The translations under genes were made by a program, and so were the position numbers. A stretch of DNA of 63,301 bases, filler included, from Collodictyon triciliatum (lineage: Eukaryota): assembly GCA_043381765.1 (NCBI GenBank). It is 5 parts of 5 records of this genome, joined end to end, with 100 filler letters (N's around TTAATTAATTAA, not from the genome) between each part and the next. Parts side by side here need not be neighbours in the genome. Positions count along the whole stretch, not along the records: positions 1 to 14,748 come from JBHJMP010001780.1; 4 more parts are not named here. The stretch is one strand, 5' to 3'. A model generated the notes under the pieces. That model was not told the DNA's origin. It saw only the letters and a list, made by a program, of their open reading frames with translations, and did no database searches. Below are positions 1-55,477 of the stretch, piece after piece. Position 1 is the first letter of the stretch, and each line of letters starts with the position of its first letter.

Positions 1-250
1 TTTTATTTATTTTATTTATTTTATTTATTTTATTTATTTTATTTATTTTATTTATTTTATTTATTTTATTTTATTTATTTTATTTTATTTATTTTATTTT
101 ATTTATTTTATTTTATTTATTTATTTTATTTATTTTATTTATTTTATTTATTTTATTTATTTATTTTATTTATTTTATTTATTTTATTTATTTTATTTAT
201 TTTATTTTATTTTATTTTATTTTATTTTATTTTATTTTATTTTATTTTAT
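1..250. repeat. (TTTA/TTTTA)n microsatellite, intronic
   Basis: Tandem TTTA/TTTTA units ending shortly before the AG acceptor at 271-272. Confidence 0.95.
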
Positions 251-272
251 TTCATAATTCACCTTTTAATAG

Positions 273-546
273 GCATGACAAAGCCCTGGGATATTACCGT
301 AAATCACTTGAAATCCGACTGAAATTATACGGAGAAATGCACCCTAACGTTGGGGATACATACTACAATATTGGTAGTCTACTCATGAACCAAAAAAATT
401 ATCAGGAGGCTCTGAACATGTTCCAAAAGGCCAAGGAAGTGTATGAGCACGTTTATGGCGTGGACCACTCTGAGACCAAATATGCCGAAAAGAACCTGCT
501 AAAAGCGCAGAAGAAGCATTCTGGAAGGGAATGCCCAATCCAGTGA
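273..546 (+). CDS. Terminal exon of a TPR-repeat protein (kinesin-light-chain/TPR_12-like) ending in a CaaX box
   Basis: After ttttaatAG the frame reads HDKALGYYRKSLEIRLKLYGEMHPNVGDTYYNIG...YQEALNMFQKAKEVYEHVYGVDHSET, typical long TPR units; ends RECPIQ*. Upstream exons lie outside the window. Confidence 0.8.
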
Positions 547-1337
547 TTCTCTTCCTATCCAATCCACCCCATTAAAACAATTCATTACTTCATCCATACA
601 CTCTCCTTTCCACAAAACAAGTTCAATCCTTCTATCGTGATGGCCACCAAACTGAATGCAGACAGATGATTTTCAGCTTGTTTACGGAGGACTGGATTCT
701 TTCAATTTATTCAATGCAAAGTCAGAGGGCTGGATAAAAAATAATCAGAAATCAACCTAACCTTACCAACCACGTACTTGTAAAGATGGATTTCCATGCT
801 TCTTTGATAATAGATATTTGATAAGCATCACGAACTATAAGGATGATGATGTACTGATCATTAACGCGCCACTGCTATAGTGTGCTTCCATTGGATGTTT
901 TCATTACATTTTTATTTTTTTCCCGGTGATTGCATATTCCGGCATTAGCTTTGTAAAAACAATGCTTTTTCATTCTTTTTTTTTTTTTGCGTAACGGCGG
1001 GCTGTAATCATATGCGCTCCTTTTGTATGTCCTCATTATGTTTTTTTATCACAATCCTAGTTTTCATGTTCTCTGTAAAAATCCTTGACTGATTACACTA
1101 ATCTGGACTGAATCGGCACCTTCCGTAGAGATTTGAGGGCGAAGTACTGAGTGTGTTGTGCGAAGTTGGGTCATTGTTTATCTCAAATGCGATTGGTTTC
1201 GTTTAATCTCGTAAAATTTATCTGTTTGCTAGAGTTAAACTCGAATCGATTCCTTTGTCTTCTCTTTTCTTAACTTTTCCTCCCTTTTATTATTTTTTTC
1301 ATTTTGCTTCACTATGTTTAGTTTTTTGTTCTTTGTT

Positions 1338-1378
<41 letters not shown>

Positions 1379-1544
1379 CAGGTCCGGGGGGGGGTTGTGG
1401 TCGGTATTTGTTCTTTGTTTCTTATCTTACTGTTTTGAGGAATTTTTAGTAACCATACAATATTTCACACTTGCCTCATAACAGGATGTATCCAAGAAAG
1501 AAAAAACAAAGGAAATCCGAATTGACCTAATTATTCTGATACAG

Positions 1545-1690
1545 CCACTTAAGTGTATTATTTACTAGAAGGGAATATACCATCTCTCGATTGGTAAACC
1601 TGGTTCGCCAGTATCCAAGGTCTCACCACTTTTTTCACAAGTGTCGTGTAGTGGTGAAGGCTGCCAGGAAAGACCCGACAGCCTGTTTTT
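1545..1690 (-). ncRNA. Candidate Fanzor omegaRNA (scaffold ~1690-1565 plus flank-derived guide ~1564-1545)
   Basis: Directly 3' of the Fanzor RuvC-III/stop there are four hairpins on the minus strand (1684-1658, 1657-1623, 1611-1600, 1596-1578), with G-U pairs valid only in minus-strand RNA and a GAGA tetraloop. The position matches known TnpB/Fanzor omegaRNAs. Boundaries are inferred. Confidence 0.65.
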
Positions 1691-3778
1691 TTAAAGAAAG
1701 TGTATGCATTCTTTTGGGGTAGGATTAAAAAAACCTATCTTGGGATATCATTAGCGCTGTTTAAGTCCCTTGTCAAGAATACACTGTGTTTGCTTTCTTA
1801 GTGATTGCATTCTTTACATATGAGACATTTATACAACTTTTTTTCGAGTTTGCTTTCAGTATTATATATTCCAGTTCCTTTTTCGCAGTTAAAACACATC
1901 TCGATGTTCTAAATTCATATACACTAACCGTTTCAAAACGTTTGGGTACTATTTTTCGGATTCCTCTTCCGATTGTTGCCATAAAATGGTTCATCTGAGA
2001 TTTTCTGCTCCAGCCTCCATACGCCAGTACAACATCCTTGCCAAATGTCTTTTCGATTCGGTCCATAAACAACGGTTCACTTCTTTTTTTTATCAGCATA
2101 CTGTCTCCATCTCATCTTTCGAAAAGTTCCTTGTTCATAAAATCTGGAAAATTCTACTGGTATCTTGATTTCATAGATACATATATTCGAAATTGTTCAT
2201 AATCGACCGTGCGTGAATTATGTTTACTCAGTTCTGTCTCTAAATCGACTAAAGATACTCTTGATGTCTCAAACTGCTGATTCTCTTCAAAAGTCACGGC
2301 ACCAAAAGAAATAGCACTTTGTAAATCTGTTGCCACGCATATCCCTGAATAATTGTACTCTACTTTTCTTTTTTTCTCGCGCAAGAGTATTGAGTGCCCC
2401 TAAATAACAAGGTTTGTTATCATGTCTTGTTTGGTGTGGCGCGTAACGTAATTTCTTAACTGCCTCATCCACCATGCAAACAAAATTAAACTTGCCTGCG
2501 TCCACTCAAACATTTTTTTTTTGCCGCTAATAAAGATAACTGCCCTTCGGAAAGTTCATCTATATAAACATATTCTTGAGTTTTTTTTTATTATATTTGG
2601 ATTTTGCATTTGAAATACGTTTCTTTTCAAACAATAATAACACCACCAAGCCGTCTGTTTGTATCATGTATTTAAAATTGTTGTCTGTTTGATGAAAACC
2701 CCTCTTCTTGATTTCAAAGAAATCATCCCATAGGGTCTCTTTGCATCCTGATATATTCTTCAGTAATGATGTTTTTCTAGTTAATACTAACAGACCTACC
2801 AAACATGCAGTATCTAGAGTAACATGACATGACATATTGGTAGTTCTTATAGGGATTGGTTGAAGCAGTTTGGCTCCAATGTCCTCAAAAATGAGACTCA
2901 TGTAAATCAGACATGGTATGTACTTCTTCGGATTGACTTTGACGTCATATTCGATACCATTTACAATATCGCTGGGAATAATATGATTCAAATGCGTTAT
3001 AGCCCATTCTTTATATTGTTTCGGTATTTCGAGTTTCTTGAAGGTGGCTTTTCTTATTTAACTTTCGTAACTCTGGCTTTTTAATAGCATCCGTAATATT
3101 CTCATCTCCAGGAACTGTTTGATTTATAAAGAGCATTAAACTTTTTACATAATGACCCTTAATATTTTTATGATAAGCTGCTAGCATTTGCTTCGCCAAG
3201 CACGGTAATACATGAGACAATCCAACCAACGGAATGCGTTCTTCTCGGGACAAAAAGGAATCGAAAATCATTGAGATAAAAAGCCATCATGTCTTTACTC
3301 ATTTCTGGATTTTTAAACTTGCGGGTCTACCTTGTGAAACTACTCCGACTGTCTTTAAAGCATACAAAAAAAAAAACATTTCATCGGTTGTTGGGAGTTG
3401 TTGTGATTTCAATATGTAACATCTTGCAAACAGAAAAGTGTCGGTAACCAAATTATGACATAACAAAACCGCATCGTTGATTTTGTAATAGTCATCCGGA
3501 TTCTTTACAATCGACTTTAGAGATGTTTTCATATTTCGATGGTCTGGTTTTACAGACTTCTGATTATCAGACTCGAGGCGTTTTCTTTTCTTCATCTGAA
3601 AGTCTTTGCTTTACCTTTTCCTCTAGAAAACTACCGAGTTTTCAATTTTAACAAAACTTTAGTCTATTAGTCAATATATATAACTGCATAAAATCAATTT
3701 ATGTAAAATTAAGCATCTACCGAGACTCTCAAAAATGTGCGCATTGTGGCAAACAAACACACAAAGTTTTTTAGGTGA
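1565..3778 (-). mobile_element. Non-autonomous Fanzor-carrying element with Helitron-type termini, copy 1 (2214 bp)
   Basis: Closely similar to 13240-14748, with homology starting at A|TCAC in both copies. The minus-strand 3' end is TACCAATCGAGAGATGGTA(hairpin)-TATTCCCTT-CTAG|T. No TIR seen. The 3' end rests on this single copy. Confidence 0.75.
1735..3595 (-). pseudogene. Fanzor1-type (TnpB-like) RNA-guided RuvC nuclease, ~620 codons, frameshifted
   Basis: Fragments in order: basic N-terminus MKKRKR; IQTDG..V; EYVYIDEL; RuvC-I VDAGKFNFVCMVD; ETELSKHNSRTVD; VVLAYGGWS; RuvC-II VYEFRTSR; Zn ribbon CFNC...CKEC (shifted frames); RuvC-III FLTRDLNSANDI. Confidence 0.88.
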
Positions 3779-4167
3779 TGTATCTTACAAGCTCAATCTG
3801 CGTGCGCCGAGAGGGAGAGAATAAAAAGAGTAAAAAATTGCTTAGTTGGGAGGCTGACACGGAAAAATGGAAAAAAGAAAGAAAAAATGCGCCCAGCACC
3901 CACCAGAAGAAAATTGAATGCAATGAAAAAAAGCGCTTACCTCTCTTGGGTGATGACTAAAAATCAACGTCTTGCGGCTAAGGAATAAATGCTTTTTTAA
4001 TTAGGAGAAGTGATGAAAAAATAGCGTATACGCGACCGTTGAGAAAGATATAAAGTGGAATTTATAATATATTATATCAAATTAACGTAAAAAGGGGTTA
4101 AACCATATATTTTTCTGGAAATGTAATAGAATCAAGCATCAGTTGTGCTACTTTACTAAAATGCCAA

Positions 4168-4788
4168 TTTATTCTTCCTTTCAATTTTGTGCAGGGCGGT
4201 GGAGATGTTAGCTTTGATTCGCTAGCCTTCTTTTGCGTGGACGATACTTGGTGGCCGGGTGGCGGAGAAGTAGTCGGCAATCAGGAATTGCATCCTGCAG
4301 TTTGGCCTGTAGCCTGAGTCTTGTGCTTGCATGAGAGAGACAAGGCGAGGTTGAATCTCTTTCTCAGTCTCTTTCCACATGTCTCTTCTCACAGGTTCTG
4401 AGTAGTAGAGAACGTGCAGGTGGCGAAGAAAGCTATTGAGGAAAGAGATTTGTATGATGTCATTCAACCTATTATCAGGAATGAGTGGCTGGTTATTGGG
4501 TCTCGCTTTGCGTGAGTATATGCGCGCTATCCACATAGTCCATAGCAAATGGCCTCGCGTCACTGCCCAGAATGTTCTTGCATCTGGACGCAGCTGTTGC
4601 AGAGGCCCAAATATCGCCTGGATTGGGCCAACAGCCGCAGCCGTCTTGAGTGCCAGTCGAAGAATCTCACCGGCTATTTCGCGCAGTGTTTGAGCGAAAG
4701 AAATTTTTGTGATGATTTTTTTTTTATTATTCTTCCTTTCAATTTTGTGCAGGATGGTGGAGATGTTGGCTTTGGTTCGCTAGCCATC
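4168..4788 (-). mobile_element. Two tandem 5'-truncated 3' ends of a putative non-LTR (L1/Tx1-like) retrotransposon
   Basis: Open minus frame FAQTLREIAGE...FWAVTRGHLLWTMWIAR...HAKEG* resembles a LINE ORF2 C-terminal W-x-x-W-x-x-R motif. The stop plus ~50 nt tail with an AATAAA-like signal is repeated at 4716-4788, there followed by an A10 tail. Confidence 0.5.
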
Positions 4789-4807
4789 AAATTTTTGTGA
4801 TGATTAA

Positions 4808-5012
4808 CTCAGAGAAATAGATTAAAACCTCGCCTTACTTTTCTCATACAAGCACAAGACCCAGGCTGCAAACTAAATACATCATACATTTATTTGATAA
4901 CAGAGTACCGATCTGCTAACCGGCCACCAAGTATCGCCTATGAAAACGAGGGCTATCAAATCAAAGCCAATATTGTCCATCCATTGCACAAATTGTCAGG
5001 AAGAATAAAAAC
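4808..5012 (+). mobile_element. Diverged inverted third copy of the same 3' end
   Basis: Translates KPRLTFLIQAQDPG...LITEYRSANRPPSIAYENEG versus QPRLVSLMQAQDSG...LIADYFSATRPPSIVHAKEG at 4222-4370 (minus); ends GGAAGAATAAAA like the other copies. Confidence 0.55.
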
Positions 5013-6369
5013 AACGGATTGTCTATCTCTGAAACGCCCTGAGGAATCCAACGCGCCATTTAACTTTCGAGAACGGCCATCACTACAACATGTCATGAGA
5101 GTAATTCATCCGCCTTGCAAGAGAGAGATTTAGTCGTTGCGTAAGCATGACCCATATGTAGGAATATCCAAATAATTAAGGACTATTTTACGCCTAGCCA
5201 TACCTTCCTTTACGCTTCCTCAAGAGAGAAAAATAAAGCATCTCTGTATTTTGAGACACACACCCTCTTCTTACATATGTGTCATAGTAATGCGCACAAG
5301 TAGACGGCATAACTTAAAAAACTGTTAATTAAACAGCATCTTTAAGCCTGTCGCGTCTTTTTTTACTTTTCTTTTTGCATTACTAATTGCCCAACTTGGA
5401 TACTGTTTCTCATATTATTGTTTTGAAAATATGCTCCTCCAGAATATCAATCGTAAACTGTAGTGCATGCTCTAGTTTTAAGTGAGATTAAAATATCACA
5501 ACATATCTGAAATTAATTTATTTAAGAATGAAATTTTATTACTTCCTCTATTCATGAAGATAATCACGAATTGTGTTGTAGTATTATTCACATTTCGAAA
5601 GTAATAGATATCTAGAGTTTCGGTCTCAAATATTGGATATGTATTGTGTCGTCTCTAATTAAATTTTATTATTCTCCCTTTGTCAAAATTACGTTCCTGT
5701 GTATACGCATATTCCTGCAGTGTTTAAGACAAGGAGCTACCTTTGCTCTTATTTTATTTTTGCTCCAGCTAGGATACGTTGATTTATACTATCCACAGAT
5801 TGAATATTGACATTTTTATGAAGCCTCCTGTACCTAGGAGGACCTGTGTATCCAGCTAATAGCCCTATCTCTTGAAAAGAACCATTTCATTACTTTTTCA
5901 TACTTTGTTCTTCAAAATTCATTCTCATATGGCTGTTTCCTAAATTTTCGCTAGTTTAACTAAAGTAGAAGATTCATTAATATTAGTAAAGCTTCCGTAA
6001 TTTTTTTATTAGTTAACCAGGGCAAGGAAGGTTAGGTCAGGTTCACTTTTAAGCGAGTGATCTGAGATATATTGGTATAAAATTTATATATCCCGGAAAG
6101 TATTAACTAAGTGATTTATCACTGGTTTTTTTGAGAGAGATCTCCACCACGAGACTTTTTTGTGGATTCTGTAGTTTTGGGGTCAAGAAACAATCTTCGC
6201 TTCTGCTGCAGGGCTTGATGTCCTCTACTAAGCGTTGGAAGCTCAAGAAACTATGTTTTTAGATAGAAAAGATTCAATACTACAGATAACTAATATAAAA
6301 GAAACGGCAGATGAATACATAATATATTAGCATGCGACAGAGTAAATAAGATTATTTTGCATACTGTGC

Positions 6370-7159
6370 GTTTGTTTTACCTCGTTTTCTGAGATATCCA
6401 GAACCACAAGATTAGTTAGTAGACTTACAGCCTCGGGTAGATTTCTTAACTTTTATTTAGATTATTTGATGAGATTTTATTAATAATTGAGCGGATATGT
6501 ATTAATAATGATACACAGAGATTCTGAGTTTCTGATTTTCTTATATATTAAAAGGTACCTTGTTTTTCGAGACATCCAAATACATAATTGAAGGTATGAA
6601 GCACACAGATTCAGGGAATTCACAAAACTATTAAAAAAAAATTAAATTTTATTATTTGAATTGATCATTACAGTATGATTGAAAAATTACGCAGTTTCTT
6701 CCAAGTGACAAGTATGTCAAGCGCTGCATGAGTGTGATGCTGCTTGGCAATACAGCGAGTTTTAATGCGTACAAACTAAGTGATTCGAATTGGATATGCG
6801 ATTTTCTTGGATTCCACATCAGCTTTGTTACTGACTCAATCTATAAAGGTTTATAATAAGGTATCACAGATGCACCATTTCATGAAAACTGCCTAATTGC
6901 TATATAAAATATTACTCGCTCGCATAATTGTAGTGTCTGAATGCTTCTCTCCCGTAAAGTGTCTTCAGCCACCCAGAAAGGAAGATTGGAGATTCCCCTT
7001 GGAGCTCTTTCAATGTTGCGATGAATACCACTGTTAATTTTAAGAGTTTGAAGACTCTTGAGCGCCGTGAAGTGTGGTGGAAGTTCATGTATCTATGTGC
7101 ATTATGATATAATCACTTTATGGGATTTTATGTTTTCGACTAAGCATGTGAGAATTTTA
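6370..7159 (-). pseudogene. Degenerate LRR-coding continuation downstream of the LRR ORF
   Basis: Isolated minus-strand LRR peptides IHELPPHFTALKSLQTLKIN (~7095-7035), PSIMYLDVSKNK (~6594-6558) and LRNLPEAVSLLTNLVVLDISENE (~6450-6381), separated by stops or possible introns. Confidence 0.5.
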
Positions 7160-7831
7160 TCATAGTAGGAGTACCGGGTTATCCTGAAGATAAAGCTCTT
7201 TCAGATTAGTCAGGTGTGATATTTCTAACGGCAGAGACGATATCGCATTCTTGTGCATCCAGATATTCGATATTCCCACCAAGTTGGATATTTGTTGAGG
7301 TATACGTGATATATAGCAGCAGGCAACACGAAGAACTTTAAGACTCATCAAAAAAGGTATTGGGGACATCGTCGATAATAAATTGAGATTCATGTTGAGC
7401 TGGATGAGATTTGTAAGACAAGATATTGGAGGCAACGAGGATAGCTGATTATCAGTCAAGTCGAGGTATCTAAGACCCGTTAAACACGATATCTCTTCTG
7501 GTATCGATGATAGTCGATTGGAAAGAAGGTTCAGGTGAGAGAGGCGAGTCAAGATCAATATTTCTCGAGGAAATAATGAGAAATCATTTTGATTTATGAA
7601 TAGCGCCGTGAGATTATTTAACCGACTTATTTCTGAAGAAATCGATGGCAGTTGGTTGAATCCGAGAATAAGTCCAGATATGTGGGTTAGGTGAAAGATA
7701 CCAAGGGGAACCGACGTAAAATTTCTGTGAATCAATCGTAGCTCTGTGTGATTACGAAGAGTGGCAATGTCAGGGTCCTCCGTCAGGATGCGAAGTTCTT
7801 CGAGGTGTTCAAGCTCGTTGGGCATGGCCAT
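7160..7831 (-). CDS. Leucine-rich repeat protein (223 aa, ~8 LRRs)
   Basis: Repeated LxxLxLxxNxLxxLPxxI units (e.g. LTGLRYLDLTDNQLSSLPP). May be the intact 5' part of a longer decayed gene. Confidence 0.85.
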   Translation of the reverse strand: MAMPNELEHLEELRILTEDPDIATLRNHTELRLIHRNFTSVPLGIFHLTHISGLILGFNQLPSISSEISRLNNLTALFINQNDFSLFPREILILTRLSHLNLLSNRLSSIPEEISCLTGLRYLDLTDNQLSSLPPISCLTNLIQLNMNLNLLSTMSPIPFLMSLKVLRVACCYISRIPQQISNLVGISNIWMHKNAISSLPLEISHLTNLKELYLQDNPVLLL

Positions 7832-7955
7832 GGAGATGAATTGGAAGGAAACTGGTATGGGCTCCGGGGCTGGCTGAATTAGCGTGTCTTTCGGCTAAGG
7901 TGCTTGCTTGGTGTTTTGTCCTCTGATAGTGCTGTGTGTGAGTATTTTAGAGCGG

Positions 7956-7963
7956 TTTATATA
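7956..7963 (-). promoter_or_regulatory. Putative TATA box of the LRR gene
   Basis: TATATAAA on the minus strand in GC-richer flanks, ~125 nt upstream of the ATG at 7831. Confidence 0.35.
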
Positions 7964-8461
7964 CACCCCTGGGGCTGCGGCACGCATATATAAAATGGAG
8001 GAATGAATATAAGGAGGATGAAATTGAGACGAGATTTAATGTCTGGAAGACTGTGTTCATATAAGTATAATTTATGAGATAGTGTGTGAAATATACAATC
8101 TACTAACTAATTAAATGATTCACAGAACCATTTATTCAAATATAGTGTAATTTCCATAATAACAATACAAATATGGTATGATAAATTATTAGTTTTTGCA
8201 GACACGAAACGCAAGAAGCTTTTTTTTTTATCATAATTCTTTCATTTCGCCAGAGTTTCGGTGGGAGGTTTGGGCGAAGCTCGCTGTAAAAGAAACAATC
8301 AAAAAGCAGGATTAATCAAAGGACTTAGATAATGGTGATTGTAATTAACAAGAAAGAATAAAGAAATAATGCCATGTAATGTTCTTTTACTTTTATATAG
8401 GACACAAGACACAAACACAAGAAAACATTCGGCTGCCCAAAAAAATCGCAAGATCGCCTGA

Positions 8462-9649
8462 ATGAAACTAGATTGCGTGGTATGTCAGGATAGGTACAAA
8501 GATCCGCGCTTTCTTCAATGCGGTCATTCATTCTGCCTTGGGTGCCTTACAAACTGGTTCGCTCATGACAGTGCCTCAGCTTTACCGTGCCCAACATGCC
8601 GTCAGGAAACCAATATACCCGCCGGCGGCTGCTCACATCTCCCCCGAAATTATGCTCTGAATGATGCTTTAGAGTCTCCAGCCTCAGTCTCAGCCCCAGC
8701 CCCAGCTCTAATTCCTAGGCCACCTCCAGTCCATAGACCATCATCTTATCAATACCTTTCTGCGAAGGCAAAGAACCTTACAAAACTGATAAGAAGTCAC
8801 TCATCCCCGACACTCTTTATGTCTGTGATTTTTTCGCTATTCTGTGTCTGCGATAGGGCTGAGGTTATTTTATTTCTGGCTTTGGTTACATCCTTTGCCT
8901 TTCAGATCCGCTCTATCGTGTCCTCCACGACCGGGACAGGGGCCATTGTTCTCATTGAAATATGGATTTTGATTTGCTCCAGCGTGTTGTGGGTCCTACT
9001 TGCCTCCATGCTTATCATCATGGGTGGGAAAACTCTGATGATTACATTCCATTCGAGTGTTTTTTATTCATCAGCATCCGTACTTTCCTTTGGACTAGCG
9101 AAGCTACCTGCAGAGATTTATCGTTCACTTGATGTATTGGCCAGCGGAGGAGAGTACCCCTTGTACATCACCATAAACATAGCGAGTTTAATTTACGAAA
9201 ATATGTGGTATGTATCAAGGTTCGCCATGGAATATGCCCAAATAGCTTTCGAGTTAGTATTCAATGCGCTGGGAACAACTCTTTCTATTCTTTTCGAAAT
9301 TATTTACATCATATCTGCGACTTTGCTCCATATATTTCATGTTGGAATAGTCTATGTTCCGACGATGTTACAAATTCTCCATGATGTGACACTGTACATA
9401 ATATCGCCTCTCTGGTCTTTGTTGGTAACTTTGGTTTCATACACACCAACACTGACGCAATCCTTTTTCAACTTTGTCTTCTACATTTTTGGCCATTTGC
9501 CTTCGCTCGCATATATCGGATTTTCTGGATTTGTGGAATTCATACGATGGATTGTCGGGATGTATAACTTTGTCCTTTCAACATATACAGTAGCAAAGAC
9601 GTTGCTGGTGGCAATATTCTTTTCAGTAATGATTCGCTATGGCAACTAA
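8462..9649 (+). CDS. RING-HC (TRIM-like C3HC4) protein with multi-pass hydrophobic C-terminal region; putative membrane E3 ligase
   Basis: CVVC...DPRFLQCGHSFCLGC...CPTCR...LPRNYAL, then a Pro-rich linker and many hydrophobic segments; intronless 395 aa. Confidence 0.85.
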   Translation: MKLDCVVCQDRYKDPRFLQCGHSFCLGCLTNWFAHDSASALPCPTCRQETNIPAGGCSHLPRNYALNDALESPASVSAPAPALIPRPPPVHRPSSYQYLSAKAKNLTKLIRSHSSPTLFMSVIFSLFCVCDRAEVILFLALVTSFAFQIRSIVSSTTGTGAIVLIEIWILICSSVLWVLLASMLIIMGGKTLMITFHSSVFYSSASVLSFGLAKLPAEIYRSLDVLASGGEYPLYITINIASLIYENMWYVSRFAMEYAQIAFELVFNALGTTLSILFEIIYIISATLLHIFHVGIVYVPTMLQILHDVTLYIISPLWSLLVTLVSYTPTLTQSFFNFVFYIFGHLPSLAYIGFSGFVEFIRWIVGMYNFVLSTYTVAKTLLVAIFFSVMIRYGN

Positions 9650-10335
9650 CTAAGCACCCAATCGCCAGAGGCTTCAGACTGGTTAAATAGTTCAACTTTT
9701 TTGTTATATTTTTCCCTGTGATGCAACCATTCTCACGGCACGCAGCTCTTCTATAGTCCCTCTCTCGCAAAACTGTGAGCTCCATTAAACATGGCGATAC
9801 CCAAGGACGATGAAATAAAAAAAAGAGTTCGAGCTTGGGTGACTGAATGTGTGTTTTCATGTGAAGAAATTGATTTTTACGATCTCATACCCAAAATCAC
9901 TGACGGGCAATAATCAACTGCATTTGTGCGTGTCAATGGCGAGAAGCAACTCCTTTTTTTCCCTCCTTTTTTTTCCTCTCCATTTTTTTTCTTCTTTTAC
10001 TCAAGCAGATCCACGACTTCTTCAGACTCACCATTAGGGTTGTTTGAAACCCCATTCTCAAAGCTCATACTGACCGAGCGAAGGGTCTGTTCGTAAGGAG
10101 TTTTCGAAGAGGTCGCCAGTTTGGTATTTTCGCGTACTTTTGTCCATTCTTTCCGATGAAAACCTGCGGCAGCCGGGTTGCTGTGCATTTTCTTGATTGT
10201 TTCTTATTATTGCGACTCCTTCTCGCTTGCTTTTTTTCTTCAATCAAAGCACCACAAATGCAATATTACCAATCATGCATCCTACCTACGGTTCTGATGC
10301 CCACGGAATTCAATACATGTAAGGAAAGTTAGCTA

Positions 10336-10336
<1 letters not shown>

Positions 10337-10410
<74 letters not shown>
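10337..10410. repeat. poly(A) tract
   Basis: Uninterrupted A run of about 74 nt. Confidence 0.9.
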
Positions 10411-10417
<7 letters not shown>

Positions 10418-10821
10418 GAGCCAGCATCTCAATGGAAATATTTTATCCCGCTTATAACGCCGCAACTTAAAAAAACGAATGTATTTTTCTATTCGCGAAA
10501 GCTTCGGCGTAGCATTTAATAGTGTAATTTTTTTTTTATAATTCTTTATTGGCACAAGTAAAGCAAACCTCAACGAGATACAATATCGTGGATAGATTGT
10601 TTTATACGAAGTGTTAACTGTCTGTATCATTTTGTTAGTCACTAGGCTTTGTGACTTCTTTTCTTGAGTAACATTCATTATACACGAATCACACGTGAAC
10701 GACAAAAATCTTTCATTTTGAAACGTTCACATATTCTTTTACGATTGCTTCGATTGGACGTCTCTTATTGTTATATTGTGCATCTATACCCACTCCCCTT
10801 TTAACACCATTTAGGTTGCCC

Positions 10822-11733
10822 ATGACCACGTCTCCAACAAACTCGCCGTTAGTCTGCAGCGTTTGCCTTGATTCGTACACTGACCCTCGCATGCTTTTAT
10901 GCGGTCATTCATTTTGTTTGCCATGCATCGAAAGGATGCACAAATCCACACGATCCAATTGGCTTCAATGCCCGAACTGTCGATTAATTATCCCAGTGCC
11001 TAAAAACAGTTGCAAAACTTTCCAAAAAAACCTTGCTCTTGTAGGAAATAACCAGGCTATCTTTAATAACAGAAACATATCCATAAGGCCTCTTTTATCA
11101 AACAGATGCTCGAGTGAGCCACGATTTCTTCATGAGATGTCCCTTCCGTCAGACGGGACTGAAAGTACCATCAAAAGCACCGGCGTCTCGGATAATGCTG
11201 CTTCGAATCGTTTGTCTCCATCACAAATTCAACACGAGTACCGCGAGCGCCTTCGCATCCAGTTTGAATATCATGGGATCAGCAGGAGCCCAAGTTCTTT
11301 TCAAGTTCGCGAACGTCAAGTGACACCTGCTGTAAATCGAAGACATGTTGCCCCCGTCGAGATTGTTGATGTTGATAATATTGTAATCAAGCTTCTTTTT
11401 TCTGTGATTGCTCTTACATCGGTGGTATCAAGCTTTTCACAAAGTAACCACGCATTTTGGTCTACGGCTTCATTACTGTTGTATCTAGTTTACTGTTCCT
11501 TCATTGCGATGAGAAGATGGGAAGTCAACCCATCAGCGTCCATATCCGACATCGGAAAAAAGATTTTGGTCTCCTCCGCTCTTTTGTTATGGTTTTCTCT
11601 GGTTCATGTACACAAGGTTCGGAATTACATACATTTCACTTCTCCTGAGAGCATAAAGGAAAGCCTCTGGGCCTTGTTTGGAGGCCATCACCACGCGCTG
11701 GTTGGCCTGTGGCAATACTTGTTCCCTGAGTGA
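10822..11733 (+). CDS. RING-HC protein with C-terminal transmembrane helices; paralogue-like neighbour of 8462-9649
   Basis: ATG at 10822; CSVC...DPRMLLCGHSFCLPC...CPNCR...FQKNLAL; about three hydrophobic helices near the C-terminus. Confidence 0.85.
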   Translation: MTTSPTNSPLVCSVCLDSYTDPRMLLCGHSFCLPCIERMHKSTRSNWLQCPNCRLIIPVPKNSCKTFQKNLALVGNNQAIFNNRNISIRPLLSNRCSSEPRFLHEMSLPSDGTESTIKSTGVSDNAASNRLSPSQIQHEYRERLRIQFEYHGISRSPSSFQVRERQVTPAVNRRHVAPVEIVDVDNIVIKLLFSVIALTSVVSSFSQSNHAFWSTASLLLYLVYCSFIAMRRWEVNPSASISDIGKKILVSSALLLWFSLVHVHKVRNYIHFTSPESIKESLWALFGGHHHALVGLWQYLFPE

Positions 11734-11791
11734 CGTTTCGACAGCGTCTGACACCAGCATGCAATAATTACATGCAATAAAAATTCAGAGT

Positions 11792-11913
11792 CTGTTTGTT
11801 TGTTTGTTTGTTTGTTTGTTTGTTTGTTTGTTTGTTTGTTTGTTTGTTTGTTTGTTTGTTTGTTTGTTTGTTTGTTTGTTTGTTTGTTTGTTTGTTTGTT
11901 TGTTTGTTTGTTT
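11792..11913. repeat. (GTTT)n microsatellite
   Basis: Perfect tetranucleotide tandem array. Confidence 0.95.
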
Positions 11914-13239
11914 GAAAAAAAATCCATGTTGATCTCATCTTTGCAATACGAATAAATGTGGTATCACAGAGACAAACGGAGTTGAGAGGAATAATTAACA
12001 ATAAAATAAAATAAAAAAACACAATAATTAAGAAAATATCTCATTTGCAGGGAAACAAGCACGCTGAAAGAGAAAAGAAGAGCACACTCTCCAGAAAATA
12101 ATATTAAACTGAGCTTCTTTCCTTCTTCTCCCAAATCACTACATTCTAAGCCAGAAAAAAAAAAACACGCAAGCGATCGGAAAGAAGGATCCCGAGAAGG
12201 ACGAGAACACCTACCAGGAGAACCGCCACAGCCCTGCCCCATGGGATGCCTACTGACTGTACGCAAACCGTACGCAAGCCGACAAAGTTGACCCAGAGAG
12301 CGAAAAGGTAACTTGACCGCATCCCTTGCAACACAGGTTATGCACCGAGACACACCGACGACCAGGACGCCGGCTGCCACCGACCCGTGAGTCAACAAAC
12401 GAGTAATAAGACGGAGCGAGCTCTTTGAAACTAATATTAATGATAAAAGAGGAATAAAAAAAGGCCTATCGAGCTCAAGCCATCGACCCACGGGTAGCAA
12501 GAGAACAAGAGACTCCTGAAGAAAGGGTTGATAGGCCTCAAGCTTCCGCTATCGACCGACGGGCAGCAAGATAAGTATGAATATACTGCTCGGTATTAGT
12601 CGCTCTGATTCATTCATCCGTTTCTTTTTTCTTTTTTCTTTTTTCTTTTTCTTTTTCTTTTTCTTTTTCTTTTTCTTTTTCTTTTTCTTTTTCCTTTCTT
12701 TTTCCTTTCTTTTTCCTTTCTTTTTCTTCAGTCTCATTCAGCTTGTAAACGAATAAACTTTATTACAAAGGTTGTGGCGAACTTAGTTTTATCCCTTTCA
12801 AGGTACACATCACTTTTTATACAACGAAAGTGTGCCCATATATAACAGTTTATGGCACAGACAACCATCGAATTAAATCTGGATTGACAAAGGCAGGAGC
12901 TTTGATGAATCCAAGACAGCACCTGAATAATATAATAGTGTGATTAGTATATACAATAAAAAAAATACTTAATAATCTCATTCTATTCACATAACAAATT
13001 TATATTTTATTTTCCATTTGATTCGCATTAAAATTCAAGATTACAAACAAGGTGTTACCTTGGCCCAGACAGAACCCACACCATAAACTTGCCACCAAAC
13101 ATGCATTTCAAAAAAGTATACTATTCACACTTGCGGTGGTAATCATGTTGTTTGGGTCGATATGTTGAATTTCAGTCGCAATGGCTATACGGCTGTCCTT
13201 TCGAACTCGCCGAATGGGCTCTCAGCGTTTTGTCTCAAA

Positions 13240-14748
13240 TCACTTCTAAAAAAAAAAAAAACTTTGTGTGTTTGTTTGCCACAATGCGCACATTGTGAGA
13301 GTCTCGGTAGATGCTTAATTTTACATAAATTGATTTTATGCAGTTTTATTATTTTTATCAAATTGACTGATTGACTGATGTTTTATTAAAATTTAAAACT
13401 CGGTAGTTTTCTAGAGGAAAAGGCAAAACAAAGACTTTCAGATGAAGAAAAGAAAACGCCTCGAGTCTGATAATATAAAGTCTGTAAAACCAGACTATCG
13501 AAATGTGAAAACATCTCTAAAGTCGATTGTAAAGAATCCGGATGACCATGACACAATCAACGATACGGTTTTATTGTGTCATAATTTGGTTACCGACACT
13601 TATCTGTTTGCAAGATGTTACATATTGAAATCACAACAACTCCCAACAACCGATGAAATGTTTTTTTTGTATGCTTTATAGATAGTCGGAGTAGTTTCAC
13701 AAGGTAGACCCGCAAGTTTAAAAATCCAGATATGAGAACCGACATGATGACTTTTTTATCTCAATGATTTTCGATTCCTTTTTGTCCCGAGAAGAACGCA
13801 TTCCGGTCGTTTGGACTGCCTCATGTATTACCGCACTTGGCGAAGCAAATGTTAACAGCTTATCATAATAATATTAAGGAACATTTTGTTAAGAGGTTCC
13901 TGTGCTTTATAAATCAAACAGTTCCTAAAGATAAGAATATTACGGAAGCCATTAAAAAGGCAGGGCTACGAAAGCTAAAAAAAAAAAATAAAGCCATCTT
14001 CAAGAAACTCGAAATACTGGAACAATATAAAGAATGGGCTACAACGCATTTGCATCGTATCATTCCCAGCGATATTGTAAATGGTATCGAATATGACGTC
14101 AAAGTCAATCCGAAGTACATTCCATGTCTGATTTACATGAATTGCATTTTTGAGGACATTGGAACCAAAAACTGTTTCAACCAATCTCTATAAGAACTAC
14201 CAATATGTCATGTCATATTACTCTAGATACTGCATGTTTGGTAGGTCTGTTAGTATTAACTAGAAAAACATCATTACTGAAGAATATATCAGGATGCAAA
14301 GAGACACTGTGGGATGATTTCTTTGAAATCAAGAAGAGGGGTTTTCATCAAAGAGACCACAGTTTTAAATACATGATACAAACAGACGGCTTGGCGGTGT
14401 CATTATTGTTTGTAAAGAAACGTATTTCAAATTCAAAATTCAAATATAATAAGAAAAAACTCAAGAATATGTTTATATAGATGAACTTTCCTAACAGCAG
14501 TTATCTTTATTAGCAACAAAAAAAATAGTTGTAGTGGACGCAGGCAAGTTTAATTTTGTTTGCATGGTGGATGAGGCATTTAAGAAATTACGTTACGCGG
14601 CACACCAAACAAGACATGATAGCAAATCTCTTGAAAATCACAAAATACTCTTGCGCGAGAAAAAAAGAAAAGTAGAGTACAATTATTCAGGGATATGCGT
14701 GGCAACAGATTTACAAAGTGCTATTTCTTTTGGTGCCGTGACTTTTGA
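13240..14748 (+). mobile_element. Fanzor-carrying element, copy 2 (5' two-thirds; truncated by assembly gap)
   Basis: Starts A|TCACTTCTAAAA..ACTTTGTGTGTTTGTTTGCCACAATG and is colinear with the reverse complement of 3778-2287. Confidence 0.85.
13442..14748 (+). pseudogene. Fanzor1-type nuclease, copy 2, frameshifted, 3' part in gap
   Basis: ORF pieces 13442-13681, 13837-14193, 14205-14480 and 14534-14748 match copy 1; includes RuvC-I KIVVVDAGKFNFVCMVD. Confidence 0.85.
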
Positions 14749-14792
14749 NNNNNNNNNNNNNNNNNNNNNNNNNNNNNNNNNNNNNNNNNNNN

Positions 14793-14804
14793 TTAATTAA
14801 TTAA
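14793..14804. other. Artificial scaffold linker TTAATTAATTAA inside N gap (also 29624-29635, 44412-44423, 59202-59213)
   Basis: Identical 12-mer with stops in all frames centred in similar-length N runs; contiguity across these joins is uncertain. Confidence 0.9.
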
Positions 14805-14889
14805 NNNNNNNNNNNNNNNNNNNNNNNNNNNNNNNNNNNNNNNNNNNNAAAAAAAAAAAAAAAAAAAAAATTTTTTTATAATTTTTTGG

Positions 14890-14931
<42 letters not shown>

Positions 14932-16770
14932 CTCCTTTCTTCTTTCTAAAAAAAAAATAAAAAATATGTATCCTATCATTGATAATAACCCATGCAACTT
15001 GCGCAGTGCTCAGAGAATTGGAGATTAACAAACTTGGTCAAGTATTCGAGTATGGTTTATTGGAAAGTAAGGAGGAGGTACCACACCAGGCTGCAGCAGA
15101 AGCCGAAAAGCAAGCCGTGGAGAAAGTGGCAGATTTACCGGAGGCCAGTGTGGCCAACTAACACGTCCTCAAAGCCATCGCCTTTCAGCCTCATTGAGCA
15201 ATCCTTTCAGCTGTGAAAGCGACTATACGGTTAACCCAAACAATAAAACAAAACAAAAATTGATATCTGTTTGTGCCATCAATGCGCTTTTTTATGTATA
15301 ATATATGACCCCTTTTGCATTCTATCGTAGAATGCATGAAATAAACTGTGTATTTCTTCTCCTTTTCAGTGTGTTGAAAAAAAAAACAATAGAATATTTT
15401 ACTTCATATTGCTGGGTACCACAGTAAACCCACTAAAGTATTCTACAGTAATACTCATAATTTTATCATACTTCTATTATTTGATTATCTTACCCCATCA
15501 AATCTCAAATAAATAAATAAATATTTAATTCTAAAAGGGCAACACAGAGCCCTTTTTTCCTGATGCCAATTCTTGTCTGCTTTTCATGCATCAGCCCTCA
15601 TGAGCTCTTCCGGACGATATCTTTCTCCTTCAACCGACCCAAAGTCCGAGAAGGTTACGCCACATCCCAGGGTCACGGAACACCCAGCTTTGCGGCACAA
15701 GTAGGATGTTGCATTCACTGAGTACGGGTTCGGACCACAGTCTCCAACAGAGATTATCTTGTGATTAGATTATGCTCGTTCCTGGGCAGAAGAGGCCTAT
15801 TCTTTTTCTTTTTTTTTCTTTTTTTCTTTTTTTTTCTTTTTTTCTTTTTTTCTTTTTTTCCTTTTTTCTGCGTATATGCAATGCGTGATGCTGCAACATA
15901 AAAACAGAACAGGAGTCTGTGGCGTGGGCAAAGTTGTCCACAGACATGCCGACCATCCAAGCGCCTTCAGAGTCTGCCATCTCTCAGGCCCCCACACCTG
16001 CCAGAAATGACGCGCTATCCCAGGAGAGGCATCATGTTCTTCCGCCACGCATATGCGTTTGTGTGGATGCCTGTTGTTCGGACGATTGCGCTTTTCCTGC
16101 TGTTTCACAGATTCTTTGCTCTGCGATGATTCATGCAAAGGCTCCCCAAACAGACGAGATGCCGTCAGAGTCTGTTGGCGGCGGCCTGGCTCATGAGCGA
16201 CTCGAGCCTCCTATGAGGCCTTCGCAGGGATGACATGGAGATGACTCCGGAGTGAATCTGGCCTGTCTGCTTGCCTTTCTGGACGGACGCTGGGCTTTGT
16301 GCTTGGCCGTGTGGGTCGTTTTATGGGAGGTGGGTTTAATGTCACACCACGACTTTTACAATGCAACGAAAGTATGGACACGGGGCTTCTCCATAGTTGG
16401 CGGCGACTCTATCAAACACAAGACTAATGGACTACGAGTGCAATAATAGATTCTACATGTGTCTTTATTATGCACCACCTACGGTAATAAAAGAGACTCG
16501 TTTGAACTAGTGATGTTGCATTCGTACAAGTGGACATGGGGACATGAAAGTCGGGTGCTTCTCTTCGTTATCATAATCTTATGGATTGCTGGGTGGCATT
16601 TGATTGAAAGTGTTCTTTTGTTGTTGTTGTTGTTGATGTTTGTTTGTTGTTGTTTTTTTGTTTGATTTTTTTCTCTGAAAAGGAAAATAGAGGCAAAATC
16701 ATATCGGAGGGTGAAAAGAGGAAAATGCGTGGCTATGTGCAAGTTGACAACGTCAAGGGATAATAGCGTG

Positions 16771-28773: not shown

Positions 28774-29393
28774 CGGCCTGGTCTGAGCTCCTGTCTTCTT
28801 TCTTTCTTTCTTTTTTGTTTTTTCAGAATCATTTTCTTGTGACTTTTTTCGTTTTTTTTTTTAATTTTCATTTTCATTTTCATTTTCATTTTCATTTTCA
28901 TTTTCATTTTCATTTTCATTTTCATTTTCATTTGCTTTGCTTTTACGCTCTTTCTTTCCATTTGCTTTCTTCTGTTTGGCGACTTCTTTTCTGTATCAAT
29001 CAGGTGTTTATACATTTTCTTTCACTTTGTCAGTTGTTCTATTCGTACGTTTTGCAAAACGTTTATGGCTGTGTTGTTTCAAGACGTATTTTTTTTTTGA
29101 TTTTATCATATGAATGTCTATTTTTTTTTCATTTTATTTTAGGAATGGGCAGGTTTGAGAGGAAACGAGGAAAAGAGAAGCAGGCTTTCCTGGAAGCTTC
29201 CCTAATTGGCTCTGTGTTGAATCAATCTCGATCAATGCGCACTGGTTCGCACTGACATCCTTTGGGGGCTGGGAAACGCACCCACAGGCGAACAAGGCAG
29301 GTGACAACACAGCCAAAAGTAAAGAATAAAAAAGAATAAAAAAAAGAATAAAAAAAAGAATAAAAAAAAGAATAAAAAAAAGAAAAAAAAAAG

Positions 29394-29517
<124 letters not shown>

Positions 29518-29679
29518 AAAAAAAAAAAGAATAAAAAAAAGAATAAAAAAAAGAATAAAAAAAAGAATAAAAAAAAGAANNNNNNNNNNNNNNNNNNNNN
29601 NNNNNNNNNNNNNNNNNNNNNNNTTAATTAATTAANNNNNNNNNNNNNNNNNNNNNNNNNNNNNNNNNNNNNNNNNNNN

Positions 29680-32799: not shown

Positions 32800-44250
<11,451 letters not shown>

Positions 44251-44708
44251 ATTTCCCTTTTTATTTTCTCTTTTCTTTTTTTTTTTTTTTACTTGAATCT
44301 TATAAAAGAATATAAAAATAATATTTAAAAAAAAAAAAAAAAAAAAAGGGAGTAATAAAATTTTTTTNNNNNNNNNNNNNNNNNNNNNNNNNNNNNNNNN
44401 NNNNNNNNNNNTTAATTAATTAANNNNNNNNNNNNNNNNNNNNNNNNNNNNNNNNNNNNNNNNNNNNTCCTTTCCTTTCCTTTCCTTTCCTTTCCTTTCC
44501 TTTCCTTTCCTTTCCTTTCCTTTCCTTTCCTTTCCTTTCCTTTCCTTTCCTTTCCTTTCCTTTCCATTCCATTCCATTCCATTCCATTGCTTTTCTTTTT
44601 CTTTTTCTTTTCCTTTCCATTTCATTCCATTGCTTTTTCATTTGTTATATAATATTTCAATAGCATGATAGTTTTTCGCTGTATGACTTCCACTCACACA
44701 AAACCAGT

Positions 44709-55383: not shown

Positions 55384-55477
<94 letters not shown>

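What the first reader, a model, noticed from the sequence alone, without database searches (positions are those of the whole stretch)
1565..3778. Complete eukaryotic OMEGA locus: Fanzor1 nuclease plus omegaRNA packaged in a 2.2 kb mobile element, two copies in the window
Seen: scattered minus-strand ORF pieces join into a ~620-codon protein with RuvC-I D (VDAGK), YGGWS, VYEFRTS, two CxxC (CFNC, CKEC) and RuvC-III D (TRDLNSA). A structured non-coding tail follows, and a second copy with different flanks lies at 13240. Established: this motif order, with G at the canonical RuvC-II position and the catalytic E moved to the EFRTS motif, is the Fanzor signature, and Fanzors are RNA-guided DNA nucleases. 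Inference: this is a Fanzor family from this protist, possibly uncatalogued. All three catalytic residues survive, so a consensus could be resurrected.
Basis: partly seen in the sequence, partly recalled or inferred. Interest (0 to 1): 0.92.

Follow-up and report, generated by a model that had tools for sequence, protein, structure and literature searches.

The report
Decayed Fanzor1 transposon copies, not intact
The region holds a broken copy, and part of a second, of a 2.2 kb mobile element that once encoded a Fanzor1 RNA-guided DNA nuclease; the family assignment is right, but both genes are dead, so this is an ordinary transposon relic.

Summary
They belong to a real Fanzor1 homologue. A profile of 48 full-length relatives hits 7 ORF pieces of copy 1 in collinear order. 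The window shares about 43% of residues with a 634-aa relative, P0003. P0003 matches solved SpuFz1 over its full length (E 9e-37; model TM 0.80). The window's D, E and D fall at the positions of SpuFz1 D383, E541 and D606.

The locus is not complete. Copy 1 needs 9 frameshifts and carries 3 in-frame stops. Copy 2 (13256-14748) covers only the 5' 1.5 kb and runs into an assembly gap. The two copies share several lesions and differ by 8.3% with no third-codon-position excess of changes. They are therefore neutral relics of an element that was already dead.

Contigs from four public runs cover about 1570-3773 and nothing beyond. This confirms a multi-copy unit of about 2.2 kb. The 3' tail is predicted to fold (z -3.3 to -4.1), but the omegaRNA role is unproven. 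The tail stays open in the protein frame, and a covariance model from giant-virus relatives does not detect it.

Verdict: a new, decayed member of a known kind.

The parts
1553..3772 (-). Copy 1 of the ~2.2 kb repeat unit. Both ends are uncertain by about 20 nt: the 3' end lies at 1553-1572 and the 5' end at 3772-3795.
   Evidence: Contigs of 4 public runs (149, 345, 138 and 11 laid at >=80% likeness) cover bins 1568-3835 and give zero depth in 1400-1567 and 3836-3900. Loose ends lie at 1572 (X1) and at 3772/3773 (X3), with differing flanks. Homology to copy 2 ends at 3772.
3596..3772 (-). 5' leader upstream of the start codon, shared with copy 2
   Evidence: 11 substitutions in 170 aligned sites. 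No function was tested.
1735..3595 (-). Fanzor1 pseudogene. It runs from ATG 3595-3593 to TAG 1737-1735 (~620 codons) and is broken by 9 frame changes and by in-frame stops at 2508-2506 and 1800-1798.
   Evidence: ORF pieces and their frames. Frameshift-aware alignment to P0003 residues 1-617, 255 of 588 aligned residues identical. HMM hits in collinear order. Coordinates checked.
2650..2661 (-). QTDG, matching the TDG motif described for the Fanzor1 WED domain
   Evidence: motif as described in PMC10711439 (passage)
2491..2505 (-). RuvC-I motif VDAGK. The Asp at 2502-2500 matches P0003 D372 and SpuFz1 D383. It reads DAG instead of the usual DPG.
   Evidence: Among the first 60 of 69 family members surveyed, DPG was found in 48 and DAG in 2.
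2007..2021 (-). YGGWS. Gly sits at the canonical RuvC-II Glu position (SpuFz1 reads GDWS).
   Evidence: PMC10530073 passages
1902..1922 (-). VYEFRTS. The alternative catalytic Glu (1916-1914) matches P0003 E530 and SpuFz1 E541.
1807..1896 (-). C4 zinc finger: CFNC (1896-1885) and CKEC (1818-1807), matching the nearly invariant C537, C540, C564 and C567 of the relatives
   Evidence: It lies in a different frame from the EFRTS piece.
1753..1773 (-). RuvC-III motif TRDLNSA. The Asp at 1767-1765 matches P0003 D581 and SpuFz1 D606. The stop TAA at 1800-1798 separates it from the zinc finger.
1553..1734 (-). 3' tail. It is predicted to be structured and is part of the repeat unit. It is the candidate omegaRNA scaffold region and probably also the former C-terminal coding sequence.
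   Evidence: Folds: z -4.06; z -3.27. Frame 0 stays open from 1734 to 1561, 58 codons. P0003 residues up to 617 align as far as 1663. The tail is covered by contigs of other copies. Rfam gave no match. Neither the covariance model nor nhmmer from giant-virus relatives gave a match.
13256..14748 (+). Copy 2: the 5' 1.5 kb of the element (leader plus the N-terminal two thirds of the gene up to just past RuvC-I, with VDAGK at 14534-14548). It is also a pseudogene.
14749..14849 (.). Assembly gap (two N runs around a TTAATTAATTAA linker) that cuts off copy 2

Best explanation
The region holds two dead copies of a non-autonomous DNA transposon of about 2.2 kb. One copy is full-length and one is a 5' fragment. 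The only gene of the element was a Fanzor1 RNA-guided endonuclease.

Shown: the gene is a Fanzor1 homologue. It has the family's rearranged RuvC site (D, then G at the old Glu position, then an alternative E, then D) and a C4 zinc finger. The unit is multi-copy with defined ends. Both copies are pseudogenes, share some lesions, and diverged without coding constraint.

Inferred from the family, not shown here: in intact relatives the protein binds an omegaRNA transcribed from the 3' end of the element. That RNA overlaps the end of the ORF and runs about 15 nt into the flanking DNA, which serves as the guide. The complex cuts matching DNA next to a TAM.

The element carries no transposase, so its movement depended on an enzyme encoded elsewhere. 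This explains how a copy with a broken nuclease gene could still multiply. The copies in this window can no longer make the nuclease.
For: Homology. ORF piece 2560-3057(-) hits PpFz1 (E 4.4e-4), SpuFz1 (1.6e-3) and GtFz1 (0.09) among solved structures. Piece 1773-2111(-) hits PpFz1 residues 1111-1181 (E 1.1e-3). Piece 2560-3057 finds 691 proteins at E<=1e-3 and 172 at E<=1e-10 in 1.84 billion. An HMM of 48 of these hits 7 pieces of copy 1 and 4 of copy 2 in collinear order.

P0003 aligns to 3595-1663 with 255 of 588 residues identical. It matches SpuFz1 at E 9.2e-37, PpFz1 at 7e-34 and GtFz1 at 7e-16, with nothing else at E<=1. Its AF2 model (pLDDT 88.9) gives TM 0.80/0.83 to SpuFz1, against 0.23/0.30 to Fanzor2 and 0.21/0.34 to TnpB. 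The catalytic positions map to SpuFz1 D383, E541 and D606.

Decay. The frame path is 1>2>1>0>1>0>2>0>2>0, with stops at 2508-2506, 1800-1798 and 1737-1735. The two copies are 91.7% identical (1377 of 1502 sites) with 11 indel events and 64 transitions to 61 transversions. Substitutions per codon position are 41, 32 and 20, so there is no third-position excess. In both copies the ORF ends ...KKLKNMFI* at the same A-run and continues in another frame. Other copies differ there, and at 3252, by one base.

Multi-copy unit. No transposase domain was found in 20 larger ORFs of the window.
Against: No intact copy was seen, so the activity of this lineage is inferred only.

No terminal inverted repeat was found between the two ends, and no target-site duplication could be established. 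The transposon superfamily is therefore unknown.

Several frameshifts lie in homopolymer runs. Some could be sequencing errors, but the three nonsense codons and the non-homopolymer indels cannot.

Pfam gave no hit above cut-off on any of the 8 window pieces. Only 1 of 10 full-length or partial relatives passed the PF07282 cut-off.

The omegaRNA has no comparative or expression support here.
Confidence: 0.9

Rival explanations
1. One reading: a complete, potentially functional OMEGA locus, with an intact Fanzor1 and its omegaRNA present twice.
For: All catalytic and zinc-finger motifs survive. The tail folds well. Unit size and layout resemble the ~2.1 kb SpuFz1 element (PMC10432273 section 7).
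Against: There are 9 frame changes and 3 in-frame stops in copy 1. Copy 2 is also broken and lacks the 3' third. Lesions are shared between the copies, and substitutions show no third-codon-position excess.
Confidence: 0.03
2. The Fanzor copies are remnants of an integrated giant-virus genome, not copies of a transposon resident in the host.
For: The nearest full-length relatives lie in giant-virus contigs. P0003-like genes sit at 80-88% identity in IMG/VR giant-virus bins. 279 viral stretches encode relatives. The nearest protein-atlas clusters are Nucleocytoviricota.
Against: Identity to the viral proteins is only about 43%. The unit is a discrete 2.2 kb repeat with sharp ends and hundreds of diverged contigs in four runs. 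The two window copies have unrelated flanks. Neighbouring ORFs are ordinary repeat-domain and phosphatase genes, although such genes also occur in giant viruses. An older transfer between virus and host remains possible and is compatible with the main explanation.
Confidence: 0.05
3. The frameshifts are sequencing or assembly errors in homopolymer runs, and the gene is intact in the organism.
For: Several shifts lie in A or T runs (2512, about 2590, 3248-3252). The scaffold is a draft with gaps.
Against: The three stop codons arise by substitution. Copy 2 has its own TAA where copy 1 has GAA. The copies differ by indels of 3, 4, 5 and 10 nt. There is no third-codon-position excess of changes.
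Confidence: 0.02

Closest known systems
SpuFz1 / SPu-1 element of Spizellomyces punctatus (PDB 8GKH; Saito et al. 2023, PMC10432273; Bao & Jurka 2013, PMC3627910)
   Same: A ~2.1-2.2 kb unit with a single ~630-aa Fanzor1 ORF and no transposase. It shares the domain order, the D/alternative-E/D active site and the C4 zinc finger. It is multi-copy, with partial and degraded copies in the genome. The relative P0003 matches it at E 9e-37 and TM 0.80.
   Different: SPu-1 has 30-33 bp terminal inverted repeats and TA duplications. No inverted repeat was found here. SpuFz1 copies include intact ORFs and a proven omegaRNA of about 75 nt plus a 14-15 nt guide. Here the ORFs are broken and the RNA is only predicted. 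Sequence identity is low (about 22% for P0003 in the structural alignment).
Giant-virus (Nucleocytoviricota) Fanzor1 genes such as P0003 and loci L003-L087
   Same: These are the closest full-length relatives found: about 43% identity across the whole protein, with the same motifs and the same basic N-terminus.
   Different: The viral genes are intact. They carry a strongly conserved ~140-nt 3' RNA-like element with covarying stems. That element is not detectable in the window's tail. The window's copies sit among cellular-type genes.
PpFz1 (Parasitella parasitica, PDB 9CF0) and GtFz1 (Guillardia theta, PDB 9CER)
   Same: These are Fanzor1 nucleases. The window's own pieces hit PpFz1 directly.
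   Different: They are larger proteins with extra insertions (TM 0.74 and 0.63 to the P0003 model).
Fanzor2 (ApmFz2, PDB 9B0L) and TnpB (ISDra2, PDB 8H1J)
   Same: They share the RuvC plus zinc-finger core and are guided by RNA from the transposon's right end.
   Different: They are much smaller and lack the Fanzor1 REC insertions. They gave no sequence hit at E<=1, and TM was only 0.21-0.34.

Membership tests
Fanzor1 | Sequence homology to Fanzor1 rather than to Fanzor2 or TnpB | tested here: met
   The window pieces hit only Fanzor1 chains, plus one chance-level cytochrome b row at E 0.75. P0003 hits only the three Fanzor1 entries at E<=1. The family HMM hits all major pieces.
Fanzor1 | RuvC-I Asp in a DPG-type motif | tested here: met
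   VDAGK at 2505-2491 and in copy 2 at 14534-14548. The Asp aligns with SpuFz1 D383. The motif is the variant DAG, also seen in 2 of the first 60 of 69 surveyed relatives.
Fanzor1 | Canonical RuvC-II Glu replaced by Gly or Pro, with an alternative Glu downstream (rearranged site) | tested here: met
   YGGWS at 2021-2007 and YEFRTS with Glu at 1916-1914, 33 residues apart. The Glu aligns with SpuFz1 E541. The feature is described in PMC10530073 and PMC10711439.
Fanzor1 | RuvC-III Asp (RDxN) | tested here: met
   TRDLNSA at 1773-1753 aligns with SpuFz1 D606.
Fanzor1 | C4 zinc finger between the alternative Glu and RuvC-III | tested here: met
   CFNC and CKEC sit at the positions of the nearly invariant C537, C540, C564 and C567.
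Fanzor1 | Fanzor1 fold: enlarged REC and a WED domain with the TDG motif | tested here: inconclusive
   QTDG is present at 2661-2650. The fold was tested only on the relative P0003 (TM 0.80/0.83 to SpuFz1). The window's own broken protein was not folded.
Fanzor1 | The three acidic residues form one RuvC site in 3D | not testable with these tools
   Model coordinates are not returned. The only evidence is residue-by-residue correspondence to the solved SpuFz1 site.
Functional OMEGA locus | Uninterrupted nuclease ORF | tested here: not met
   Copy 1 has 9 frame changes and 3 in-frame stops. Copy 2 is broken and truncated.
Functional OMEGA locus | omegaRNA from the 3' end, with a conserved scaffold plus a guide read from the flank | tested here: inconclusive
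   The predicted fold gives z -3.3 to -4.1, and the tail belongs to the repeat unit. Rfam gave no match. Covariance model R1 from 52 viral relatives gave 20 matches at E<=10, none in the tail. nhmmer gave none in the tail at E<=100. No RNA data were available.
Eukaryotic DNA transposon carrying Fanzor1 | Multi-copy unit with defined ends, terminal repeats, target-site duplication and a partner transposase | tested here: inconclusive
   The multi-copy unit with ends is shown. No terminal inverted repeat was found. A duplication could not be established. No transposase domain was found in 20 ORFs of the window.

The most novel reading that the evidence does not exclude
The copies belong to a Fanzor1 lineage of a freshwater, intron-poor eukaryote that public protein sets represent only by fragments. 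The best full-length hit is a giant-virus Fanzor1 at 35-43% identity. The lineage is high-copy, and other members lack several of this copy's frameshifts. Intact, active nucleases with a compact 3' guide RNA of about 120-180 nt, different from that of the viral relatives, may therefore still exist in this organism. The lineage may record a transfer between giant viruses and their host.
Probability: 0.3. Interest if true: 0.45.

Novelty: new member of a known kind. Interest (0 to 1): 0.27.

Why it matters
Fanzor1 elements, their rearranged RuvC site and their presence in protists, fungi and giant viruses are already described. A decayed copy adds little by itself. Its value is as a pointer. It marks a divergent, high-copy Fanzor1 lineage whose nearest intact relatives are giant-virus genes. 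A search of the full genome for intact members could yield another natural RNA-guided nuclease and a case of exchange between virus and host. The shared lesions also show that a copy with a dead nuclease gene still multiplied. This bears on whether the nuclease is needed in cis.

Tried and rejected
Pfam on 8 window pieces gave nothing above cut-off.

The search for homologous proteins with piece 2560-3057 and 'longer' lengths found none. That result is weak, because the search missed P0001 (291 aa, 56% identity), which one search found.

An IMG/VR scan with the window piece confirmed 0 of 31 pattern matches. An exact 25-nt tail pattern was not found in IMG/VR.

The metagenome scan with piece 1773-2111 confirmed 2 of 597 stretches. 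L001 holds two tandem intact distant Fanzor1-like ORFs. L002 is a spurious high-GC bacterial match.

Rfam on 1-16000 gave no match at E<=1.

By eye, the window tail shares CCTTCAC, AAAAAAGT and AGACC, and a KKVVRP translation, with the conserved viral 3' element. I tested this with covariance model R1 and with nhmmer. Neither detects the tail, so I do not claim homology of the RNA.

R1's best window match (37454-37598 minus strand, 27.2 bits, rough E 0.002) has no Fanzor ORF piece nearby and is AT-rich. I treat it as chance.

My first frameshift-aware alignment placed stops at 2289 and 2271. These are artefacts: ORF 2154-2399 is open there and carries a 29-33-codon insert relative to relatives.

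That insert (2363-2277, GT..AG, 87 nt, in frame) could be an intron. No joint was listed there, so this is unresolved.

The look-up of sequencing runs listed no RNA holder. X2 is only guessed to be RNA, so nothing is said about expression.

No terminal inverted repeats were found.
Full report
**1. What is in the sequence**

- the start MKKRKR at 3595-3578, a basic N-terminus
- QTDG at 2661-2650
- VDAGK at 2505-2491
- YGGWS at 2021-2007
- VYEFRTS at 1922-1902
- CFNC at 1896-1885 and CKEC at 1818-1807
- TRDLNSA at 1773-1753

The motifs lie in stop-to-stop ORF pieces in different frames. Taking the frame as the coordinate modulo 3, the path from N- to C-terminus is 1>2>1>0>1>0>2>0>2>0. That is 9 frame changes. 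There are also in-frame stops at 2508-2506 (TGA, directly before VDAGK), at 1800-1798 (TAA, between the zinc finger and RuvC-III) and at 1737-1735 (TAG). The gene is therefore a pseudogene, not a complete ORF.

**2. Is it more than chance, and what family is it?**

Pfam found nothing above cut-off on 8 pieces. Two pieces hit solved Fanzor1 structures directly:
- Piece 2560-3057 hits Parasitella Fanzor1 (E 4.4e-4), Spizellomyces Fanzor1 (1.6e-3) and Guillardia Fanzor1 (0.09). One chance-level cytochrome b row appears at E 0.75.
- Piece 1773-2111 hits Parasitella Fanzor1 residues 1111-1181 (E 1.1e-3).

An exhaustive HMMER search with piece 2560-3057 found 691 proteins at E<=1e-3 and 172 at E<=1e-10. 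The closest are fragments: P0001 (291 aa, 56% identity), P0002 (137 aa, 82%) and P0004 (109 aa, 48%). The best hit of 550 aa or more is P0003 (634 aa, 35% over this piece).

A frameshift-aware alignment pairs P0003 residues 1-617 with 3595-1663, with 255 of 588 aligned residues identical.

I built an HMM from 48 full-length family members, which I chose from the 69 hits of 570-760 aa. It hits 11 of the window's 1983 ORF pieces. All 11 lie in the two copies and are collinear. Copy 1 covers profile positions 5-84, 99-176, 185-337, 367-414, 410-443, 445-470 and 467-555, with E from 3e-49 to 1e-4.

P0003 matches SpuFz1 over its whole length (E 9.2e-37), PpFz1 (7e-34) and GtFz1 (7e-16), with nothing else at E<=1. 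Its AlphaFold model (pLDDT 88.9, pTM 0.85) superposes on SpuFz1 with TM 0.80/0.83, on PpFz1 with 0.74 and on GtFz1 with 0.63. Against Fanzor2 it gives 0.23/0.30 and against TnpB 0.21/0.34. Of 10 family members scanned, 1 passes the PF07282 cut-off, 3 match it below cut-off and 6 match nothing.

**3. The active site**

Saito et al. (PMC10432273, passages) give D383, N385, E541 and D606 as the metal-binding residues of SpuFz1, together with a CCCC zinc finger. In the alignment these correspond to P0003 D372, E530 and D581. Those in turn pair with the window's VDAGK, YEFRTS and TRDLNSA.

The Gly of YGGWS sits where SpuFz1 has GDWS, which is the position of the canonical RuvC-II Glu. Jiang et al. 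(PMC10530073, passages) describe exactly this replacement by Gly or Pro, with an alternative Glu downstream. I could not measure 3D geometry, and I did not fold the window's own broken protein.

**4. The second copy**

BLASTN of the window against itself gives one other match: 2287-3772 against 14748-13256, at 90.9% over 1505 columns. Copy 2 lies on the plus strand with unrelated upstream flank. It stops at 14748 because the scaffold has N runs around a TTAATTAATTAA linker. Its 3' third, including four of the motifs and the tail, is not in the window. It is also broken: its pieces lie in frames 2, 1, 0 and 2.

A global alignment gives 1377 of 1502 identical sites (91.7%), 64 transitions, 61 transversions and 11 indel events. 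Substitutions fall 41, 32 and 20 on codon positions 1, 2 and 3. This is not the pattern of a gene under purifying selection.

Some lesions are shared. In both copies the long ORF ends ...KKLKNMFI* at the same A-run, and the homologous sequence continues in another frame. The relative P0001 reads through this point in one frame. The T-run at 3248-3252 is also identical in both copies.

Other lesions are private. Copy 1 has the run at 2512 and the TGA at 2508-2506. Copy 2 has a TAA where copy 1 has GAA. The two copies therefore descend from an element whose nuclease gene was already broken.

**5. A multi-copy unit with ends**

No genome is held for this window. Public runs hold only small shares of the stretch. 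When the contigs of four runs were laid at 80% likeness or more, 149, 345, 138 and 11 contigs mapped. Depth is present in every bin from 1568 to 3835 for X1 and X2, with gaps in one bin for X3 and two for X4. Depth is zero in 1400-1567 and in 3836-3900.

Loose ends lie at 1572 (X1) and at 3772/3773 (X3, with differing flanks). In the one X1 contig shown, similarity continues for about 18 nt beyond 1572. At the 5' side a variable A-run breaks the alignments, and weak similarity of the flanks continues to about 3795. I therefore give the ends as 1553-1572 and 3772-3795.

Many contigs lack this copy's lesions. At 3252, one base is left out in 5 of 5 X1 contigs. There is one base more at 2156 and at 2601, and one base less at 2084 and 1877, each in part of the contigs. 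Less damaged members therefore exist. The contigs are 150-350 nt long and cannot show a whole ORF.

No terminal inverted repeat links the two ends. No transposase domain was found in 20 larger ORFs of the window. These ORFs are WD40, a phosphatase with EF-hands, RING x2, LRR, DEK_C and TPR proteins, plus ORFs without a family.

**6. The tail**

The region 1540-1800 folds at -74 kcal/mol (z -4.06). The region 1552-1700 folds at -43.5 kcal/mol (z -3.27). Two strong hairpins lie at 1683-1659 and 1657-1623. The tail is part of the repeat unit.

Calling it 'non-coding' is doubtful. After the TAG at 1737-1735 the same frame stays open for 58 codons, to 1561. The C-terminal region of relatives around RPxxF aligns there, as far as 1663. 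In known systems the guide RNA overlaps the end of the ORF (PMC10432273 section 7; PMC10711439 passages), so both roles could coexist.

To test the RNA, I fetched giant-virus relatives. P0003-like genes occur in IMG/VR giant-virus contigs at 49-88% identity. A scan found 279 stretches encoding relatives and kept 80. Of the 85 viral loci, 83 showed the RuvC-III motif and a stop. Of these, 64 gave distinct 3' segments between two anchor motifs.

I aligned 52 of the 64. By hand I dropped one empty row, one with a long insert, and near-duplicates. RNAalifold predicts 21 pairs, and 8 of them show compensatory changes. One hairpin pair reads CG 31, UA 11, AU 7, and another reads CG 33, GC 17. The element ends in GGTGTAA, after which the sequences diverge.

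This is good evidence for a guide-RNA scaffold in the viral clade. However, the covariance model built from it (139 positions) gives 20 matches at E<=10 in the window, and none lies in the tail. nhmmer gives none there at E<=100. Rfam has no match either. The omegaRNA of this element therefore remains a positional inference with a fold prediction.

**7. Mechanism**

Shown: Fanzor1 homology, conserved catalytic positions, a multi-copy unit, decay and shared lesions.

Inferred from the family (PMC10432273, PMC10530073, PMC10711439): intact members bind an RNA from the 3' end that reads about 15 nt into the flank, and they cut matching DNA beside a TAM. Movement needs a transposase encoded elsewhere. 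The window's copies cannot make the protein.

**8. Comparison, novelty and limits**

The closest known element is SPu-1/SpuFz1, which has the same size and layout. It differs in having 30-33 bp inverted repeats, TA duplications, intact copies and a proven RNA (PMC10432273 section 7; PMC3627910 passages). Fanzor1 in protists, fungi and large viruses is established, so this is a new, decayed member of a known kind.

Whether the lineage is catalogued I cannot tell. Of the papers, I read passages and one full section as stated above. The others appear only in the search listing.

Noticed in passing
L003-L087 (IMG/VR giant-virus contigs), ~120-165 nt spanning the stop codon of the Fanzor1 gene; alignment A4: The giant-virus Fanzor1 clade carries a strongly conserved 3' RNA-like element that overlaps the disordered C-terminal tail (...SSFTSS...EEKVRPS*). 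An outer stem reads GUCUU/AAGAC, or UGACC/GGUCA in L003/L004. An inner hairpin covaries. A long-range stem pairs UUUACA with the terminal GGUGUAA, and conservation stops right after it. RNAalifold predicts 21 pairs, 8 with compensatory changes. It is probably the omegaRNA scaffold of this clade. I did not check whether it is described in print.
   Followed up: partly
L001:394-2280 and 2576-4447 (metagenome contig): There are two intact Fanzor1-like ORFs (628 and 623 aa) in direct tandem, about 295 nt apart. They have DPG, GDW and DEYRTS motifs but no CxxC pairs where the zinc finger should be.
   Followed up: no
window 3772-13256: The two Fanzor copies are head-to-head, with their 5' ends facing each other, about 9.5 kb apart. 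They enclose an LRR ORF (7160-7894, minus strand), two RING-finger ORFs (8462-9649 and 10699-11733, plus strand) and an ORF without a family (11964-12548, minus strand). This is probably coincidence in a high-copy family. I did not test whether the segment moves as a unit.
   Followed up: no
window 2277-2363 (-) and 14660-14746 (+): An 87-nt in-frame insert relative to all relatives begins with GT and ends with AG. The partial protein P0001 of a relative ends inside the equivalent stretch. It could be a small intron or a lineage-specific insertion. No joint was listed there.
   Followed up: partly
window 37454-37598 (-): This is the best match of the viral 3'-RNA covariance model in the window (27.2 bits, rough E 0.002). 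It is AT-rich, has no Fanzor-like ORF piece nearby, and gets only E 7.7 with high bias from nhmmer. It is probably chance.
   Followed up: partly
window 38440-38696, 63063-63301, 29300-29580, 1285-1378, 10337-10420: Long A/T-rich low-complexity runs recur through the window and match each other. The stretch 47400-48200 is open in all six frames, which suggests a simple repeat.
   Followed up: no
window 44664-47087 (+) and 54562-56955 (-): There are long uninterrupted ORFs for a WD40 plus pentapeptide-repeat protein (807 aa) and a PPP-type phosphatase with EF-hands (797 aa). This fits an intron-poor eukaryote. The nearest atlas clusters for the phosphatase come from mixed eukaryotic phyla and give no clear placement.
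   Followed up: partly
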